A stretch of 64,000 nt of DNA from Planktothrix tepida (lineage in GTDB: Bacteria; Cyanobacteriota; Cyanobacteriia; Cyanobacteriales; Microcoleaceae), in assembly GCF_904830955.1 (NCBI RefSeq), contig NZ_LR882970.1, one strand, 5' to 3'. The notes below the pieces were generated by a model, which worked only from the letters and a program-made list of their open reading frames with translations, had not been told where the DNA came from and ran no database searches. Numbering within the stretch: position 1 is the stretch's first letter; every line of letters begins with the position of its first letter. Below are positions 6,802-17,344 of this stretch, one piece after another. The position numbers were made by a program, and so were the translations under genes.

Positions 6802-7323
6802 CTATCTATATTTTTGAATCCATTTTTTCTTGTTGATTAAAATGTGTTTTTCAATATTAGGAAAAATTGCTCCTAAGCATTGAATAAATAGAGAGGGAAT
6901 TTGTGCTAAATAAATCAAGGGTTTTTCTTTTCTTTGTAATTTAATTATTTTGACTGGATCATCTCTAAAAATGATTTTAGCTAAACAATTTATTTTAAAA
7001 TAACGAACTTGATCACAGTATATATAAATAGCTTGAATTTGATAATATTCCAGATTATCTAAAAATCGCTTTGAATATAATAAATTGTGTAAAGTTGTTA
7101 AAGATTCTTCTTCTAAACATATATCTATATCTAATATTTTAGTTCTGATTAATTCTTTCATTAATTGAGCTTCAGAAATATTTGATCCTGTAAAACTACA
7201 TCCCCCACTAAGAATTAATTTATCTATCTTATCCTCCGTAATATAAAAAATTACCAAATCAATATAATTTTTTAAGTTATCATCTACAATATTACCATAG
7301 CCACAAACAATTCCTATTTTCAT
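6802..7323 (-). CDS. DUF218/YdcF-like (SanA/ElyC family fold) cytoplasmic protein, AT-rich gene
   Basis: KLILSGGCSFTGSNISEAQLMKEL...ICLEEESLTTLHNL matches the DUF218 signature (ivSGG ... sEA ... E..S.nT.eN). No signal peptide or TM segment, unlike the periplasmic SanA/ElyC members. The sequence is very AT-rich compared with sqdB and cpcT. Confidence 0.5.
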   Translation of the reverse strand: MKIGIVCGYGNIVDDNLKNYIDLVIFYITEDKIDKLILSGGCSFTGSNISEAQLMKELIRTKILDIDICLEEESLTTLHNLLYSKRFLDNLEYYQIQAIYIYCDQVRYFKINCLAKIIFRDDPVKIIKLQRKEKPLIYLAQIPSLFIQCLGAIFPNIEKHILINKKKWIQKYR

Positions 7324-7342
7324 ATTGATTTCCTTAGATTTT

Positions 7343-14610: not shown

Positions 14611-16005
14611 ATGACAGAGCAATTCAGCAACTTAAGTGAAGATGAAGCTTTGGAAGTAGCCAACAGATGTTTTTATGAAAAATTTGGAGAGAAACTTAGT
14701 GATATTGAGACAATTATTTTTAGAGAATCTTGGCAGAAAAAAACTTACAATACAATAGCTGAGAGCCATGCTTATAGTCAAAACTATCTTCAAAAAGATG
14801 TAGGAAATAAATTTTGGGATAAACTTTCAGAAGCATTAGGAGAAAAAGTAACTAAAAGGAATTTTAAAGCAGCTATTGAACGAAATTGTAAAGGCTATCA
14901 ACAAACCAATACTTTTGGTGGTACTCCTAAAGAGTATAGTGAAGAAACTTGGCAAAAAGAAAAAACTTATGGTCAATTTGTAGGACGAAATCCTGAAATA
15001 GAAGAACTCTTAAAATACCTAGAATCTGAACAAAAAAATAAAGTTTTAGGGATAATTGGAATACTGGGTATCGGTGGTTTAGGAAAAACTGCCCTTTGTC
15101 ATCAATTAGTATCCCAAGCTTATCATGCTAAATTATTCTCAAAAATTGCTTGGGTCAGAGCAAAAGTATATCAATATTATCCGGAACAAAATCAAACTAA
15201 TTCTAGCTCACGAGATTCTCGTTTAACCTTAAAAGATGCTATTAAAGACATTGGGAGTGAACTCAAATTACCTCATTTCGTATTACAAGATATTGAAAAG
15301 TGTAAAATTGAAATCAGTAAGATATTAAATAACACGCAAACTCTAATAGTTATTGATGGTTTAGAAGACACAGAAAGTCCTAAAGAATTAGCTAACGAAC
15401 TACGGAGTTTATTAGGGCAAAGTACCTTGATTTTAACCAGTAGAAAGGGAACAGAGAGTGATATTTTTGAATATAGACTTGGTAAATTAAATCGTGATGT
15501 ATCGCGTGAATTTATTCAAGTCATTTCAAAAGAAAAATATCCAGTTAGTCAAAATCCTATTCTTCAAGCTACAGAAGCTGAAATGGAAAAAATTTTAAAG
15601 ATTACTGATGGAATGCCTTTGGCGATGAAGCTTTTGGCCAGTCAATTGAAAAATTTGGATTTAGATCGCATTGTTGAACGCTTTGAGAATGTACCAGAAG
15701 GACAAGCATTGTATGATTATCTTTTTGAAGATAGTTGGCAAGAACTTTGTAATTTAAATGCTGTTTGGACTCAACATTTATTAATTAATCTTGCGGCTCG
15801 TAATCAACCCGTTCCGGTGAGGTTATTGTATGATCTTACTGATCAATTATCAAAAAACGAAGTTGATCATGCCTTGAGACTTTTAGTTAGATTATCTCTA
15901 GTAGATGTAAGTTCAGGATTAAGTAAACAAGTATCTTTACACTCTTTTACAGCCCGTTATTTTCGCTATACATTAAGAGAGAAATATGAACAACTTACCC
16001 AATAA
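14611..16005 (+). CDS. STAND NTPase (NB-ARC) with an N-terminal domain of unknown function of about 150 aa
   Basis: Walker A is VLGIIGILGIGGLGKTALCHQL. Walker B is LIVIDGLED. A GMPLAM motif is present. The ORF-track start at 14593 is a GTG. The first in-frame ATG (MTEQFSNL) is at 14611. Confidence 0.7.
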   Translation: MTEQFSNLSEDEALEVANRCFYEKFGEKLSDIETIIFRESWQKKTYNTIAESHAYSQNYLQKDVGNKFWDKLSEALGEKVTKRNFKAAIERNCKGYQQTNTFGGTPKEYSEETWQKEKTYGQFVGRNPEIEELLKYLESEQKNKVLGIIGILGIGGLGKTALCHQLVSQAYHAKLFSKIAWVRAKVYQYYPEQNQTNSSSRDSRLTLKDAIKDIGSELKLPHFVLQDIEKCKIEISKILNNTQTLIVIDGLEDTESPKELANELRSLLGQSTLILTSRKGTESDIFEYRLGKLNRDVSREFIQVISKEKYPVSQNPILQATEAEMEKILKITDGMPLAMKLLASQLKNLDLDRIVERFENVPEGQALYDYLFEDSWQELCNLNAVWTQHLLINLAARNQPVPVRLLYDLTDQLSKNEVDHALRLLVRLSLVDVSSGLSKQVSLHSFTARYFRYTLREKYEQLTQ

Positions 16006-17344
16006 TGTTGAATTTTATAAAAATTATCTGAATTTATTGTATTCTAGTCCAGATACCTGGAGTCAAAACTGGTTAAAAAAAGCTCAAAAACTTAATGAAA
16101 AATTATTTAGTAATCAACCAGAACAATCAGAATCAGTAACAGAAATTATTGGGCAATTGCGAGATATTTTTGAGCAAATTAATTATGATGTTAATCAACA
16201 GAATTATGATGTTAATCAACAAAATATAAGAGATTATTGTCGAGTAATATTTAATTATTGTGAATTAACCCAAGATTGGCGAGATTGGGGAAATTGGACT
16301 GAACAAGAAATTGCTAAAGGTGTAGGAACAGATGCACCTTGGTTATATTGTGGTTTAGGACGTTATCTCGAAGAAATTGGTCAACTTCAAAAATCTATAG
16401 ACTATCATCAAGCAGGAATTTTAGCCAGTCAAGAAGCTGGTGATAAAATATTTTTAGCTTGGAATCATTTAGGAGCAGGAATAGCACTTCAACGTTATAA
16501 TCAACCTGATGATGCAGAAAGACATCTTTTGCAAGCTTTAAAACTATTTGAACAGCAAAATCATCTTTATTTACAAGCAAATACATTAGCTAATCTAGGC
16601 AGTTACTATGATCGATTTGACAAAAGTAATCTTGCTGTTAATTGTTATCAAGAATCGGCATCGATTTTGCGAGAAATAGAGAACTATTTTGATTTGGGTC
16701 GGATTCTTTATAGCCAGGGAATTGCTCATTTGAACCTGAACCAAATCAAGGAAGCGGAATTAGTTTTCTTAGACGCTCAAGAATTATGTGAAACAACAGA
16801 AAATTGGTATTTTCTTGCCTTGAGTTATTATGGAATGGGTTGGTTAGAATATAAAAAAAGTCATTTTCTAAAATCTAAAGATTTTTTGGAAAACTCCCTG
16901 CGACAAATTAAAAAAGCAAAGGAATTGGGAACAGGAGCAAGTCGGTTATCTTTCCCTGAAATTGAGGGAAATATCTATATTTTAGCAGCAGCAGCTTATA
17001 GCAAAGGTTCTCAGCCAAATTTTGAAGCTGCTGAAAGATATTTAGATCAGGCAGAACTAGCTTATAATCAGTTAGATTATGCTACAGAAAAGCTGCTTAA
17101 TGTACTTGCAAATCGAGCAAGAATATATGAATATTCTGAAAATTGGTCTCAAGCGATATTAGCTTTTTCAGAATTATTGAAAGAAGGAAAACGCTTAAAT
17201 TCCATGAAAATAATTGGAGATGCTGCTATCCATCTCATTCGTATCTACTATAAAAAATCAGCGTCCTTGGGAGAATGGCTGAAACTGTTGAATCAATTAG
17301 GTTATTTGGGCTTTATAAGTTTAGCAAAACGATTTCACCGTTAA
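15986..17344 (+). CDS. TPR/repeat protein, split sensor half paired with NB-ARC gene 14611..16005
   Basis: It overlaps the upstream NB-ARC gene by 20 nt in a different frame. It is a helical repeat protein with TPR-like W/Y/A/L periodicity. Confidence 0.6.
   Translation: MNNLPNNVEFYKNYLNLLYSSPDTWSQNWLKKAQKLNEKLFSNQPEQSESVTEIIGQLRDIFEQINYDVNQQNYDVNQQNIRDYCRVIFNYCELTQDWRDWGNWTEQEIAKGVGTDAPWLYCGLGRYLEEIGQLQKSIDYHQAGILASQEAGDKIFLAWNHLGAGIALQRYNQPDDAERHLLQALKLFEQQNHLYLQANTLANLGSYYDRFDKSNLAVNCYQESASILREIENYFDLGRILYSQGIAHLNLNQIKEAELVFLDAQELCETTENWYFLALSYYGMGWLEYKKSHFLKSKDFLENSLRQIKKAKELGTGASRLSFPEIEGNIYILAAAAYSKGSQPNFEAAERYLDQAELAYNQLDYATEKLLNVLANRARIYEYSENWSQAILAFSELLKEGKRLNSMKIIGDAAIHLIRIYYKKSASLGEWLKLLNQLGYLGFISLAKRFHR

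What the first reader, a model, noticed from the sequence alone, without database searches (positions are those of the whole stretch)
6802..17344. AT-rich cluster of three STAND (NB-ARC) NTPase loci plus a CHAP/RTX secreted peptidase: candidate NLR-like defence/cell-death island
Within 10.5 kb there are: (i) an HTH-NB-ARC gene followed by a separate TPR gene and a cytoplasmic DUF218 gene; (ii) a CHAP amidase/peptidase fused to RTX Ca-binding repeats; (iii) an 881-aa NB-ARC-Ser/Thr kinase-TM-TPR protein; and (iv) a second NB-ARC gene followed by a separate TPR gene. By eye the block is markedly more AT-rich than the flanking sqdB/cpcT and downstream genes, which suggests horizontal acquisition. 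STAND NTPases with TPR sensors are the core of Avs/bNACHT antiphage systems. A co-clustered set with kinase, DUF218 and a secreted CHAP enzyme as possible effectors has not, to my knowledge, been described as a unit.
Basis: partly seen in the sequence, partly recalled or inferred. Interest (0 to 1): 0.78.

Follow-up and report, generated by a model that had tools for sequence, protein, structure and literature searches.

The report
Cluster of split NLR-like regulator genes
A Planktothrix chromosome carries three neighbouring gene pairs, each an NLR-type ATPase with a DNA-binding head followed by a separate, fast-evolving repeat-protein "sensor" gene; they look like ligand-gated transcription switches of the bacterial conflict/immunity repertoire, and one pair is broken by a deletion in this strain.

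Summary
All the domain calls hold under HMMs: DUF218, TPR, NB-ARC three times, CHAP+RTX and Pkinase. The block is AT-rich (GC 0.33 against 0.39 for the window), but only modestly, and it has no sharp downstream edge.

Two corrections:
- The 881-aa "NB-ARC-kinase-TM-TPR" protein is a strain-specific chimera. A 661-bp deletion fused a 590-aa HTH-NB-ARC gene to a 518-aa receptor Ser/Thr kinase gene and removed the kinase ATP-binding loop and lysine.
- The CHAP-RTX gene sits in a swap-prone slot and is not a conserved component. A sister species has M23-RTX there; other lineages have a T7SS-like toxin cluster or a bacteriocin exporter.

What is conserved:
- Each NB-ARC gene is coupled to a separate partner gene. 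Among NB1 relatives, 66 of 81 loci have this layout. The partner has a conserved ~110-aa head and a hypervariable TPR body.
- Orthologous NB-ARC cores elsewhere carry PNP or SEFIR/TIR instead of the HTH.
- HTH-type genes carry specific tandem-repeat boxes in their promoters.
- The three modules recur in the same order in at least four lineages.

Best reading: these are split NLR-like sensors with a transcriptional output, inside a variable conflict island. This is a new variant of a known kind. Function is untested.

The parts
8683..10086 (-). NB1: HTH-NB-ARC NTPase, 467 aa. Walker A GITGIGKT (aa 119), Walker B LVVMDSLE (aa 202), GxP EGHPLAL (aa 306), MHD-like RQHNLIRS (aa 450).
   Evidence: Pfam NB-ARC and nSTAND3. 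1008 homologues, typically 460-475 aa, 45-62% identical among the fetched loci. AlphaFold model with Foldseek top hits Apaf-1, NRC and ZAR1. Motif positions.
7343..8677 (-). TPR1: separate sensor partner of NB1, 444 aa. It starts 5 nt after the NB1 stop codon. The conserved ~110-aa head is encoded by about 8348-8677; the TPR body follows.
   Evidence: Pfam TPR_12. A same-strand partner gene follows NB1 homologues in 66 of 81 loci. Conserved head against variable body.
6802..7323 (-). DUF218 (YdcF/SanA family) protein, 173 aa, with no TM segment. It is the third gene of module 1, 19 nt after TPR1.
   Evidence: Pfam DUF218, 35 bits. NB-ARC -> TPR1-type -> DUF218 is conserved in L001, L002, L083, L084/L085, L049 and L050. 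In L049/L050 the NB-ARC protein has a SEFIR N-terminus.
10188..10221 (.). 34-nt palindrome GGGGTGAATGATTTTTTATCAATCATCTCACCCC between the CHAP gene and NB1. It is either the terminator of the CHAP gene or an operator.
   Evidence: Sequence. Identical in L083 but absent upstream of NB1 in L002, L084 and L082.
10234..11244 (-). CHAP amidase/peptidase fused to RTX repeats, 336 aa. The catalytic cassette at 10819-11238 is replaced by a Peptidase_M23 cassette in Planktothrix FACHB-1365. This gene occupies the variable slot between NB1 and NB2.
   Evidence: Pfam CHAP and HemolysinCabind. Swap boundaries from blastn. M23+RTX in L083. Other cargo in L002 and L084/L086.
11380..11416 (+). Repeated boxes AAGATC...CTGATCTCAACTGATCTTGACA upstream of NB2, in the intergenic region shared with the divergent CHAP gene.
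   Evidence: Conserved in the window, L083 and L002; a similar element occurs in L086.
11434..12688 (+). NB2 remnant: the first 418 codons of a 590-aa HTH-NB-ARC gene. The NB1-type HTH (with an insert), Walker A, Walker B and GxP are kept. The winged-helix and C-terminal part is lost.
   Evidence: blastn and translation against L001 and L083. Pfam NB-ARC covers only positions 2-110 of 248.
12689..14079 (+). Remnant of a receptor Ser/Thr kinase gene (518 aa when intact), fused in frame to the NB2 remnant. HRD, DFG, the TM segment (13432-13497) and the C-terminal TPRs are kept. The glycine loop GTGGFGEV and the VLK lysine are deleted.
   Evidence: Intact NB2 + kinase pairs overlapping by 23 nt occur in L001, L083 and L086.
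14141..14317 (-). Conserved small ORF of 57-58 aa with a hydrophobic N-terminus and a C-terminal TGGTK motif. It is divergent from NB3.
   Evidence: Called as a gene in L001, L083, L086 and L089. Identity to the window: 93% in L083 and 58% in L086.
14409..14459 (+). NB1-type operator-like element: an inverted copy GCTCAGTTTG (14409-14418) plus the tandem double box AAAATGAACTAAAACTGAACC (14439-14459).
   Evidence: It is the only match to AAANTGARCYNAAANTGARCY in the 64-kb window (expected 0.01). In other loci the same element lies just upstream of HTH-type NB-ARC genes.
14543..14594 (+). TATAAT box followed by four tandem copies of AAGTCAGGT(A), immediately before the ribosome-binding site and ATG of NB3.
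   Evidence: Three copies in L001, L083, L086 and L089/L090. Absent in L091, where the N-terminus is not HTH_VMAP-M9.
14611..16005 (+). NB3: HTH_VMAP-M9-NB-ARC NTPase, 464 aa from the ATG (the ORF opens at a GTG at 14593). Walker A GIGGLGKT, Walker B LIVIDGLED, GxP DGMPLAM.
   Evidence: Pfam NB-ARC 46.7 bits. PF26355 on the orthologues. Family members carry alternative N-termini: PNP_UDP, TIR, alpha/beta-hydrolase.
15986..17344 (+). TPR3: separate sensor partner of NB3, 452 aa. It overlaps NB3 by 20 nt.
   Evidence: Pfam TPR_12. The pair is conserved in L083, L086 and L089. In L001 it is collapsed by a 1637-bp deletion.

Best explanation
The block is a variable chromosomal island of the Planktothrix tepida/pseudagardhii lineage. 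It is built from three 'split NLR' modules.

Anatomy:
- Each module starts with a gene for an N-terminal helix-turn-helix domain fused to an NB-ARC (AP-ATPase) switch.
- A separate partner gene follows, closely spaced or overlapping.
- In modules 1 and 3 the partner is a cytoplasmic TPR protein. It has a conserved ~110-aa head, presumably the docking 'arm' for the NTPase, and a hypervariable TPR body, the ligand sensor.
- Module 1 adds a DUF218 enzyme-like protein that travels with this sensor subtype.
- In module 2 the partner is a membrane receptor Ser/Thr kinase with an external TPR domain. This pairing resembles AfsK/AfsR.

Proposed mechanism (inferred): ligand binding to the sensor, or phosphorylation in module 2, releases autoinhibition. 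The NB-ARC exchanges ADP for ATP and oligomerises. The clustered HTH domains then bind tandem direct-repeat boxes spaced one helical turn apart at promoters. This changes transcription of the module itself and perhaps of neighbouring genes: the divergent small membrane peptide, or the cargo in the variable slot.

The NB1-type box is found in this window only in front of NB3, which suggests cross-talk between modules.

In this strain module 2 is inactivated, or at least rewired, by a 661-bp deletion.

The family belongs to the NLR-like conflict repertoire of filamentous cyanobacteria. Here the HTH is the output domain, where relatives carry PNP or SEFIR/TIR.
For: Shown directly:
- Domain calls and intact NTPase motifs.
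- Foldseek top hits are Apaf-1 and plant NLRs.
- The split layout is the rule. 66 of 81 loci have a same-strand gene of at least 200 aa within 100 nt of the NB1 homologue. A TPR-family gene lies within 4 kb in 75 of 81 loci and is the only neighbour conserved across the family.
- A fused 769-aa version exists (P0110).
- Sensor hypervariability: for 107 locus pairs with NB-ARC cores 85-95% identical, the partner head has median identity 75% and the rest 26%. Anabaena UHCC 0253 has NB1 at 80% identity but unrelated TPR genes at 25%.
- Output-domain swapping on the same core: PNP_UDP and/or SEFIR/TIR replace the HTH, with a PADLOC bSEFIR hit at 5.6e-57.
- cis-elements: the tandem AAAnTGAGCY boxes occur in 30 of 57 HTH-type promoters, 1 of 21 others, and 0.2% of control windows. 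There is one hit per locus, always at the promoter, and one hit in the window where 0.01 is expected.
- Different HTH types go with different tandem repeats. HTH_VMAP-M9 goes with AAGTCAGGT x3-4, conserved down to 75% protein identity and absent in L091. The L074 HTH type goes with CCTGAGTTCGTG x2.
- The NB2 + kinase pair overlapping by 23 nt is conserved in L001, L083 and L086.
- The three-module order is conserved in four or more lineages around a variable middle slot.
- The deletions are strain-specific.

From the literature:
- AP-ATPase/TPR proteins with TIR or PNPase N-termini are conflict systems enriched in multicellular bacteria. In related TRADD-N proteins of that repertoire, ECF-like HTH N-termini 'point to a transcriptional response' (PMC8195603, PMC7159879).
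- AfsR is an NLR-type transcription factor modulated by phosphorylation (bioRxiv 10.64898/2026.09.02.748808).
Against: - There is no experimental evidence here for DNA binding, ligand, oligomerisation or phenotype.
- NB1's own promoter in Planktothrix lacks the canonical boxes.
- The box statistics use related, non-independent loci. 27 of 57 HTH-type loci fail the strict pattern, although many show degenerate versions by eye.
- The tandem decamers lie between the -10 box and the ATG, so they could be an RNA-leader element instead of an operator.
- No PADLOC defence model recognises the NB-ARC or TPR proteins.
- Canonical family members sit at a locus that is syntenic across Oscillatoriales, next to a small DnaA_N-like gene. 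That looks more like a resident regulator than a mobile defence gene.
- Two of the three modules carry disabling deletions in one or the other of two 99.3%-identical strains, so the cluster may be dispensable or decaying.
- The NB1 model has low confidence beyond residue ~285.
Confidence: 0.55

Rival explanations
1. One reading: an Avs/bNACHT-like abortive-infection island. The STAND proteins recognise phage proteins and directly activate co-clustered enzymatic effectors (kinase, DUF218, secreted CHAP peptidase) to kill or arrest the cell.
For: - Orthologous NB-ARC cores carry SEFIR/TIR and PNP_UDP effectors.
- The TPR sensors are hypervariable.
- Defence genes lie nearby: a PD-T4-10-like pair in the window and Ssp/Dnd-like, BrxC-like and ParE/Phd genes in the JGI contig.
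- The kinase domain scores highly against PADLOC PD-T4-6 kinase models.
Against: - The window proteins carry HTH N-termini, not enzymatic ones.
- No Avs or bNACHT model matches.
- CHAP-RTX is replaced by unrelated cargo in other lineages. It carries RTX repeats, the hallmark of exported type-I-secretion substrates, so it would act outside the cell.
- DUF218 follows the sensor subtype irrespective of the output domain.
- The kinase in this window lacks the glycine loop and catalytic lysine.
- The PD-T4-6 hits are generic kinase-domain similarity.
- No homologue was found in phage genomes.
Confidence: 0.2
2. Ordinary signal-transduction regulators. These would be MalT/AfsR-like STAND transcription factors, one of them paired with an AfsK-like kinase. 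They would control physiology, secondary metabolism or cell-envelope or cell-cell processes in response to endogenous or environmental ligands, with no role in immunity or conflict.
For: - HTH domains with matching promoter boxes.
- Canonical family members sit at a locus conserved across Oscillatoriales.
- The architecture (N-terminal DNA-binding domain, NB-ARC, TPR) parallels AfsR. There are weak NCBIfam similarities to AfsR and AfsK.
- A PKS gene lies nearby.
Against: - The same NB-ARC cores are fused to PNP and SEFIR/TIR domains in relatives.
- Extreme sensor turnover at near-constant NTPase identity is unusual for housekeeping regulators.
- There is strain-level presence/absence and deletion.
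- The family also occurs on plasmids.
- Neighbouring genes are rich in toxins, toxin-antitoxin pairs and defence genes.
Confidence: 0.25
3. Peptide-communication modules similar to RRNPP systems. The conserved small exported peptide gene next to NB3 would encode a signal. That signal would be sensed by the TPR partner or by the external TPR domain of the kinase, gating the HTH-NB-ARC regulator (quorum or kin sensing).
For: - A conserved 57-61-aa ORF with a hydrophobic N-terminus is divergent from NB3 in four lineages and shares the box-containing intergenic region.
- The kinase-small ORF-NB3-TPR3 set stays together even without NB2 (L089).
- 34 of 56 HTH-type NB1 loci have a divergent ORF of 140 aa or less upstream. 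Several of these are small membrane proteins.
Against: - The small upstream ORFs are heterogeneous. The commonest is a DnaA_N-like protein, not a peptide precursor.
- No processing or export genes are conserved.
- No Pfam match for the 58-aa ORF.
- RRNPP receptors lack an NTPase and are single polypeptides.
Confidence: 0.1
4. A decaying remnant. The cluster would be an accessory island undergoing pseudogenisation with no current function in this strain.
For: - Two independent deletions in two 99.3%-identical genomes: 661 bp in the window and 1637 bp in L001.
- A truncated PD-T4-10 B-like gene nearby.
- Low GC3.
Against: - Five of the seven genes are full-length and collinear with orthologues at 83-95% identity.
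- NTPase motifs are intact.
- Non-coding boxes are conserved down to 57-75% protein identity.
- Both deletions left open reading frames, although the chance of that is about 1 in 9.
Confidence: 0.1

Closest known systems
NLR-like AP-ATPase (NB-ARC)/TPR conflict systems of multicellular bacteria (Koonin & Aravind 2002; Kaur et al. eLife 2020, 2021; Dyrka et al. 2020)
   Same: NB-ARC switch, TPR sensor, variable N-terminal output domains (TIR/SEFIR, PNPase, HTH) and enrichment in filamentous cyanobacteria.
   Different: - NTPase and sensor are on separate polypeptides, with a conserved docking head.
- HTH output with defined tandem promoter boxes.
- DUF218 as a third gene.
- A conserved arrangement of three modules around a variable slot.
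- No adjacent Bell/BASS, caspase or vWA-MoxR components were seen.
AfsR / AfsK of Streptomyces (SARP-NB-ARC-TPR regulator and its Ser/Thr kinase)
   Same: An N-terminal DNA-binding domain, NB-ARC and TPR logic, with a partner Ser/Thr kinase (module 2). The STAND protein acts as a transcription factor (the AfsK link is from my own knowledge).
   Different: - The HTH is XRE-like or VMAP-M9, not SARP/BTAD.
- The TPR is a separate protein, or sits on the kinase outside the membrane.
- NCBIfam AfsR and AfsK scores are far below the cut-offs.
- The kinase gene overlaps the NB-ARC gene by 23 nt.
MalT (E. coli STAND transcription activator)
   Same: Ligand-gated NOD oligomerisation and binding to repeated boxes at promoters. 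TPR_MalT-like sensor similarity is sub-threshold.
   Different: MalT is a single polypeptide with a C-terminal LuxR-type HTH. The NTPase belongs to a different clade and the boxes are different.
Avs (antiviral STAND) and bNACHT antiphage proteins
   Same: A STAND NTPase with a repeat sensor. Relatives of the window proteins carry enzymatic N-terminal effectors.
   Different: - No PADLOC Avs or bNACHT match.
- The Walker B region lacks the NACHT D[GAS]hDE signature.
- Pfam NACHT is below its cut-off.
- Split genes and an HTH output.
- Antiphage activity is untested.
bSEFIR defence gene (PADLOC PDLC03957)
   Same: The Calothrix and Tolypothrix orthologues of module 1 carry a bSEFIR-like domain on the same NB-ARC core, followed by TPR1-type and DUF218 genes.
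   Different: The window protein has an HTH in place of SEFIR.
RRNPP peptide receptors (HTH-TPR, e.g. PlcR, AimR)
   Same: HTH, TPR and an adjacent small exported peptide gene (module 3).
   Different: An NB-ARC NTPase lies between the HTH and the TPR, and the TPR is a separate protein. No sequence relationship was tested or found. This is an analogy only.

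Membership tests
STAND / NB-ARC (AP-ATPase) NTPases | P-loop NTPase with Walker A and Walker B, followed by a helical ARC1 domain (GxP motif) and a winged helix with an MHD-like histidine. Match to Pfam NB-ARC above its gathering score. | tested here: met
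   - NB1: 30.7 bits. NB3: 46.7 bits. Cut-off 23.5.
- Motif positions.
- Foldseek top hits are Apaf-1, NRC and ZAR1.
- The 881-aa ORF matches only profile positions 2-110 of 248 (27.3 bits) because its C-terminal part is deleted.
NLR-like architecture (NOD plus a superstructure-forming repeat sensor in one protein) | NOD and repeat sensor on the same polypeptide. | tested here: not met
   The sensor is a separate gene in the window and in 66 of 81 related loci. A fused relative exists (P0110, 769 aa), so the system works like an NLR but is split.
Avs1-5 antiviral STAND | Sequence membership in the Avs families (PADLOC/DefenseFinder models), an N-terminal nuclease, protease or SIR2-type effector, and recognition of phage terminase or portal. 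| tested here: not met
   No Avs model hit for NB1, NB2, NB3 or their TPR partners at E <= 0.01. The N-termini are HTH domains. Trigger recognition cannot be tested with these tools.
bNACHT | NACHT-specific D[GAS]hDE Walker B signature, and a Pfam NACHT match above the gathering score. | tested here: not met
   Walker B reads MDSLEL in NB1 and IDGLED in NB3. Pfam NACHT scores 23.3 and 22.0 bits against a cut-off of 26.7.
MalT / LAL-type STAND regulators | C-terminal LuxR-type HTH, and a TPR_MalT sensor above the gathering score. | tested here: not met
   The HTH is N-terminal. TPR_MalT scores 23.6 and 31.5 bits against a cut-off of 45.
AfsR (SARP-NB-ARC-TPR) | N-terminal SARP (OmpR-type winged helix plus BTAD), and the NCBIfam AfsR equivalog score. 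| tested here: not met
   NCBIfam NF053617 scores 15-33 bits against a cut-off of 1430. No SARP or BTAD Pfam hit.
HTH DNA-binding N-terminal domain | Recognisable HTH fold or family. | tested here: inconclusive
   - NB1: HTH_3 only at E 0.019, below the cut-off. The AlphaFold model gives a five-helix bundle with pLDDT 72-89.
- NB3: its orthologues have precomputed PF26355 (HTH_VMAP-M9) hits.
- NB2: its relatives carry XRE-type HTH Pfam hits.
- DNA binding itself was not tested. Promoter boxes specific to each HTH type support it.
Eukaryotic-like Ser/Thr protein kinase (Pkinase) | Glycine-rich loop, VAIK lysine, HRD catalytic loop and DFG. | tested here: not met
   In the window ORF only HRD (aa 508) and DFG (aa 528) remain. 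The Pkinase match starts at profile position 45. The glycine loop GTGGFGEV and the VLK lysine are present in the intact 518-aa orthologue in L001.
DUF218 (YdcF/SanA/ElyC) | Pfam PF02698 above the gathering score. | tested here: met
   35 bits against 27.6, covering profile positions 27-86 of 133. This is a divergent member: there is no sequence match to any solved structure. The fold was not verified, because the single-sequence model has pLDDT 36.
CHAP peptidoglycan amidase/peptidase and RTX protein | Pfam CHAP and HemolysinCabind above their gathering scores. Secretion by a type I system. | tested here: met
   CHAP 57.5 bits against 26. RTX 65.3 bits against 23. Secretion is inferred from the RTX repeats only. 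No adjacent type I secretion genes were seen.
PD-T4-10 toxin-antitoxin defence (neighbouring genes 3856-4765) | Two overlapping or adjacent genes matching PD-T4-10_A and full-length PD-T4-10_B. | tested here: inconclusive
   The A-like gene matches over its full length (E 1.3e-35). The B-like gene matches only profile positions 2-128 of 353 (E 1.5e-34), so the toxin part may be missing or different.

The most novel reading that the evidence does not exclude
The three modules form one integrated circuit and are not three independent sensors. Split HTH-NB-ARC/TPR receptors, one of them gated by a receptor kinase and possibly by a small exported peptide, would cross-regulate each other through type-specific tandem boxes. 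The NB1-type box sits in front of NB3. On sensing non-self, the circuit would switch on the swap-prone 'weapon' cargo lying between them: an RTX-linked peptidoglycan hydrolase here, and M23-RTX, T7SS-like toxins or bacteriocin exporters in relatives. That would be an NLR-controlled, transcriptionally induced antagonism or immunity island. It would also be a bacterial example of an NLR whose sensor and switch are separate, exchangeable subunits.
Probability: 0.15. Interest if true: 0.8.

Novelty: new variant of a known kind. Interest (0 to 1): 0.55.

Why it matters
NLR-like STAND proteins are known to be abundant in filamentous cyanobacteria, but almost none has a defined output or mechanism.

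This locus and its roughly 1000 relatives offer a tractable version:
- The switch and the sensor are separate proteins with a recognisable docking head, so sensors can be swapped experimentally.
- The output appears to be transcription from short, well-defined tandem boxes, so activity can be read with a reporter.
- Natural variants carry SEFIR/TIR or PNP instead of the HTH on the same core. This links a transcriptional NLR output to classical immune effectors.

It also corrects an apparent exotic fusion, NB-ARC-kinase, into a deletion artefact. And it shows that the secreted CHAP enzyme is exchangeable cargo, not a fixed effector.

Tried and rejected
- Sigma-70 promoter and terminator consensus scan of 6600-17500. 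It found 58 promoter-like sites against 45.5 expected in AT-rich DNA, which is not informative.
- tRNA and Rfam scans of the whole window found nothing, so there is no tRNA-linked integration signature.
- Metagenome scan with the double-box pattern. The rest are most likely chance matches in a very large database, so it says nothing about a regulon.
- DUF218 structure. The single-sequence model has pLDDT 36 and is unusable, so no fold search was run. A profile search against PDB sequences gave no significant hit.
- Covariation between HTH recognition-helix residues and box variants (TGAGC, TGATC, TGACC). No clear residue-level covariation was seen. There is only domain-level correspondence between HTH type and repeat type.
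- Divergent small ORFs upstream of HTH-type genes as a universal partner. Rejected: they are heterogeneous, and the commonest is a DnaA_N-like protein.
- CHAP as a conserved neighbour. The only other 'CHAP' hits in 81 loci were RTX-repeat matches.
- Phage origin. There is no tblastn hit in 50,697 phage records.
- Exact-sequence look-up of the 881-aa protein. It is not on record, which is consistent with its being strain-specific.

Full report
**Origin and observation.**
The window comes from the Planktothrix tepida/pseudagardhii lineage. NB1 is 100% identical to P. tepida PCC9214_02785. The window is 99.3-100% identical over 17.6 kb to chromosome LR882967.1 of GCA_904830925.1, fetched as L001.

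ORF positions match the finding, and Pfam confirms every domain call:
- DUF218: 35 bits against a cut-off of 27.6.
- Two TPR proteins.
- Three NB-ARC-type P-loop regions.
- CHAP plus RTX.
- Pkinase.

PADLOC recognises none of the NB-ARC or TPR proteins as Avs or bNACHT. Only generic TPR and kinase models hit.

The block is AT-rich: GC 0.328 against 0.386 for the window. Mean GC3 is 0.20 against 0.29 ± 0.07 outside the block, and sqdB and cpcT have 0.34-0.38. But the genes at 1769-4765 and at 17387-23029 are nearly as AT-rich, so the contrast is real only on the cpcT side.

**The 881-aa protein is a deletion chimera.**
In the window ORF the NB-ARC match stops at profile position 110 of 248, and the kinase match starts at position 45.

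L001 and Planktothrix sp. FACHB-1365 (L083) both carry 661 bp that the window lacks between 12688 and 12689. With that segment there are two genes:
- a 590-aa HTH-NB-ARC gene (NB2);
- a 518-524-aa Ser/Thr kinase with one TM helix and C-terminal TPRs.

The two genes overlap by 23 nt. The same pair occurs in a distant metagenome contig, L086.

The deletion removed the NB2 winged-helix and C-terminal part. It also removed the kinase glycine loop (GTGGFGEV) and the VLK lysine. HRD, DFG, the TM segment and the TPRs are kept. The kinase part is therefore predicted to be dead.

L001 in turn lacks 1637 bp (window 15545-17181). That fuses NB3 to the last 46 codons of TPR3. Two near-identical strains thus each carry a different disabling deletion.

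**The core unit is a two-gene split NLR.**
NB1 belongs to a family of 1008 detected proteins, typically 460-475 aa; in the 80 fetched loci they are 45-62% identical to NB1 across filamentous cyanobacteria. I fetched 80 loci around relatives from species-representative genomes and analysed them with my own ORF calls and BLAST.
- 66 of 81 loci have a same-strand gene of at least 200 aa within 100 nt downstream, often overlapping.
- A TPR-family gene lies within 4 kb in 75 of 81 loci. It is the only neighbour conserved across the family.
- A fused single-polypeptide relative exists (P0110, 769 aa).
- The partner has a conserved ~110-aa head (KRxxYxAVxNWLxxYK...SNLEKVxGYLEAFxHLCEVEDW...WGYY) and a hypervariable body. 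For locus pairs whose NB-ARC cores are 85-95% identical, the head has median identity 75% and the rest 26%. Partner lengths range from 205 to 1167 aa, and there are often two or three tandem TPR genes.
- Anabaena UHCC 0253 has NB1 at 80% identity but unrelated TPR genes at 25%.

NB1, NB2 and NB3 are only distantly related to each other. Even so, NB3/TPR3 and NB2/kinase show the same coupled layout in every lineage seen.

**Output domains.**
On the same NB1-type core (55-60% identity), relatives replace the ~80-aa HTH with other domains:
- PNP_UDP;
- SEFIR/TIR_2;
- both together.

The SEFIR domain hits PADLOC bSEFIR at 5.6e-57. The NB3 family likewise alternates between HTH_VMAP-M9, PNP_UDP, TIR and an alpha/beta-hydrolase. 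NB2 relatives carry XRE-type HTHs or HTH_VMAP-M9.

This fits the conflict-system picture of AP-ATPase/TPR proteins in multicellular bacteria. In related TRADD-N proteins of that repertoire, HTH N-termini were said to point to a transcriptional response (PMC7159879, PMC8195603; also Dyrka et al.).

The NB1 model has mean pLDDT 64. The N-terminal five-helix bundle scores 72-89 and the NBD 80-94. Its best structural matches are Apaf-1 and the plant NRC and ZAR1 resistosome proteins.

**Promoter boxes specific to each HTH type (new observation).**
Upstream of HTH-type NB1 relatives there is a tandem double box, AAAnTGAGCY-N-AAAnTGAGCY, with an 11-nt period. Its median distance from the start codon is 50 nt. 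There is often an inverted copy 20-30 nt further upstream and a TTATAA-like -10 box downstream.

A strict pattern for the box is found as follows:
- 30 of 57 HTH-type promoters;
- 1 of 21 PNP/TIR-type promoters, and that one is really HTH-type;
- 8 of 3900 control windows.

Fisher p is 7e-5, but the loci are related, so this overstates independence.

The 21-nt degenerate pattern occurs once per locus, always at that promoter. It occurs exactly once in the 64-kb window where 0.01 is expected. That single site, 14439-14459, lies upstream of NB3 and not of NB1.

NB3, which has the HTH_VMAP-M9 type, additionally has four tandem AAGTCAGGT(A) decamers between a TATAAT box and its ribosome-binding site (14556-14594).
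- There are three copies in L001, L083, L086 and L089/L090, down to 75% protein identity.
- The exact 9-mer occurs nowhere else in the window.
- The decamers are absent in Anabaena L091. There the NB3-like core (80% identical) carries an NB1-type HTH, and three NB1-type boxes abut the start codon.

A third HTH type (L074) goes with a third tandem repeat. NB2 has its own conserved CTGATCT repeats next to a TTGACA.

I infer that these are operators for the oligomerising HTH-NB-ARC proteins. The logic resembles MalT and AfsR. Possible NB1->NB3 cross-regulation follows from the box position. None of this is demonstrated. The decamers could equally act in the mRNA leader.

**The cluster as a unit, and the variable slot.**
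The order [quoted passage not shown] is found in the following places:
- The window and L001.
- FACHB-1365, intact, at 83-95% protein identity.
- PCC 11201, where the NB1 module and NB2 are seen.
- JGI contig Ga0654610_0000085, with different flanks and 53-79% identity.
- Looser versions: L089 lacks NB2. The Anabaena contig has an NB2-like gene, an NB3-like gene and a divergent NB1 about 14 kb away.

The slot content differs between lineages:
- CHAP-RTX in the window.
- M23-RTX in FACHB-1365. This is a clean cassette swap of window 10819-11238 within flanks that are 92-95% identical.
- An EssC-like ATPase, two WXG100 proteins and a GIY-YIG protein in PCC 11201.
- A C39-ABC bacteriocin-type exporter, small peptides, HopA1 and an APH-type kinase in the JGI contig.

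CHAP is therefore exchangeable cargo. That the cargo is repeatedly secreted or antagonistic is suggestive but purely positional.

DUF218 follows TPR1-type sensors in six or more loci, whether the NB-ARC carries an HTH or SEFIR. I therefore place it on the sensing side and not as the effector; this is an inference. Characterised DUF218 proteins (SanA, ElyC) act on cell-wall precursor flux, and YdcF binds SAM (PMC12176290). This divergent cytoplasmic member could not be modelled.

**Mobility and acquisition.**
- The cluster lies next to cpcT-sqdB in three Planktothrix lineages. It is therefore older than this strain.
- The P. rubescens paralogue (57% identical) sits at the canonical family locus elsewhere.
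- The same three modules occur with other flanks in the JGI contig, and NB1 relatives occur on nine cyanobacterial plasmids. None is found in phages.
- No tRNA, integrase or RNA family lies in the window.
- The low GC3 is compatible with either foreign origin or low expression.

**Verdict.**
- The loci are split, HTH-output STAND modules.
- One module is broken in this strain.
- The CHAP enzyme is variable cargo.
- No known defence family claims these proteins.

This is a new variant of a known kind. Its value is as a tractable model for a bacterial NLR with a transcriptional output and an exchangeable sensor subunit.

Noticed in passing
window 3856-4765 (-): Two adjacent genes next to sqdB match the validated toxin-antitoxin/abortive-infection defence system PD-T4-10. 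Gene 4337-4765 matches PD-T4-10_A over its full length (E 1.3e-35). Gene 3856-4332 matches only the N-terminal DUF6575 part of PD-T4-10_B (E 1.5e-34; 158 aa against a 353-position profile). FACHB-1365 has a 592-aa ORF there instead.
   Followed up: partly
window 14556-14594; L001 1426-1455; L083 4701-4730; L086 14041-14070; L089 5956-5985: The copy number of the AAGTCAGGT(A) decamer differs between two 99.3%-identical genomes: four copies in the window and three in L001. This suggests slippage in a regulatory repeat.
   Followed up: partly
window 10819-11238 versus L083 8714-9268: A clean in-gene cassette swap. The CHAP catalytic domain is replaced by Peptidase_M23, while the promoter, the first codons and the RTX/C-terminal part stay 88-95% identical. 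This is the pattern expected for a polymorphic exported peptidoglycan hydrolase.
   Followed up: partly
L002 1642-9926 (Planktothrix sp. PCC 11201): A type VII secretion-like cluster in a cyanobacterium lies between NB2 and NB1. It comprises a 1308-aa FtsK/SpoIIIE (EssC-like) protein with an S1 domain, two WXG100 proteins and a GIY-YIG protein.
   Followed up: no
L038, L045, L046, L053, L058, L064, L069, L079, L081 (upstream of the PNP/TIR-type NB-ARC genes): A conserved, divergently transcribed ~182-aa multi-TM protein with no Pfam family accompanies the PNP/TIR-type relatives in nine loci from several genera. It is a candidate membrane effector or partner.
   Followed up: no
L032, L039, L043, L068, L073, L078, L080 (upstream, divergent): Small proteins of 71-136 aa with a C-terminal TM helix preceded by an SPTxIIL-like motif recur upstream of HTH-type NB-ARC genes in different genera.
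   Followed up: no
L003, L007, L008, L010, L013, L016, L020, L051, L059, L063, L212: A stand-alone 103-110-aa gene with a DnaA_N-like (STICHEL-type, PF23007) domain is the divergent neighbour of canonical HTH-NB-ARC/TPR pairs across several Oscillatoriales genera. It shares the box-containing intergenic region with them.
   Followed up: partly
window 1769-3739 (-): A 656-aa protein with about 250 residues of near-perfect ELQRQQE heptad-like repeats, one TM segment and no Pfam family. Its GC3 is 0.20.
   Followed up: no
window 38470-49003 (+): Two very large RTX/cadherin/Big_9 repeat proteins of 1211 and 2250 aa. RTX-type exported proteins are therefore common in this genome, which lowers the significance of one more RTX protein in the block.
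   Followed up: no
L007, L077, L078: Contigs carrying typical cyanobacterial HTH- or PNP-NB-ARC/TPR loci are filed under Flavobacterium, Pirellulaceae and Saccharibacteria MAGs. These are probably binning errors.
   Followed up: no
L086/L087 17036-21175: In the JGI contig the NB3 module is followed by DUF4007, a BrxC/PglY-like ATPase, a PAPS-reductase-like gene and a ParE/Phd pair. This is a phosphorothioation (Ssp/Dnd)-like defence neighbourhood.
   Followed up: no
window 10087-10233 versus L083: About 145 nt upstream of NB1, including the 34-nt palindrome, are identical between the window and FACHB-1365. The flanking coding DNA differs by 5-12%.
   Followed up: no
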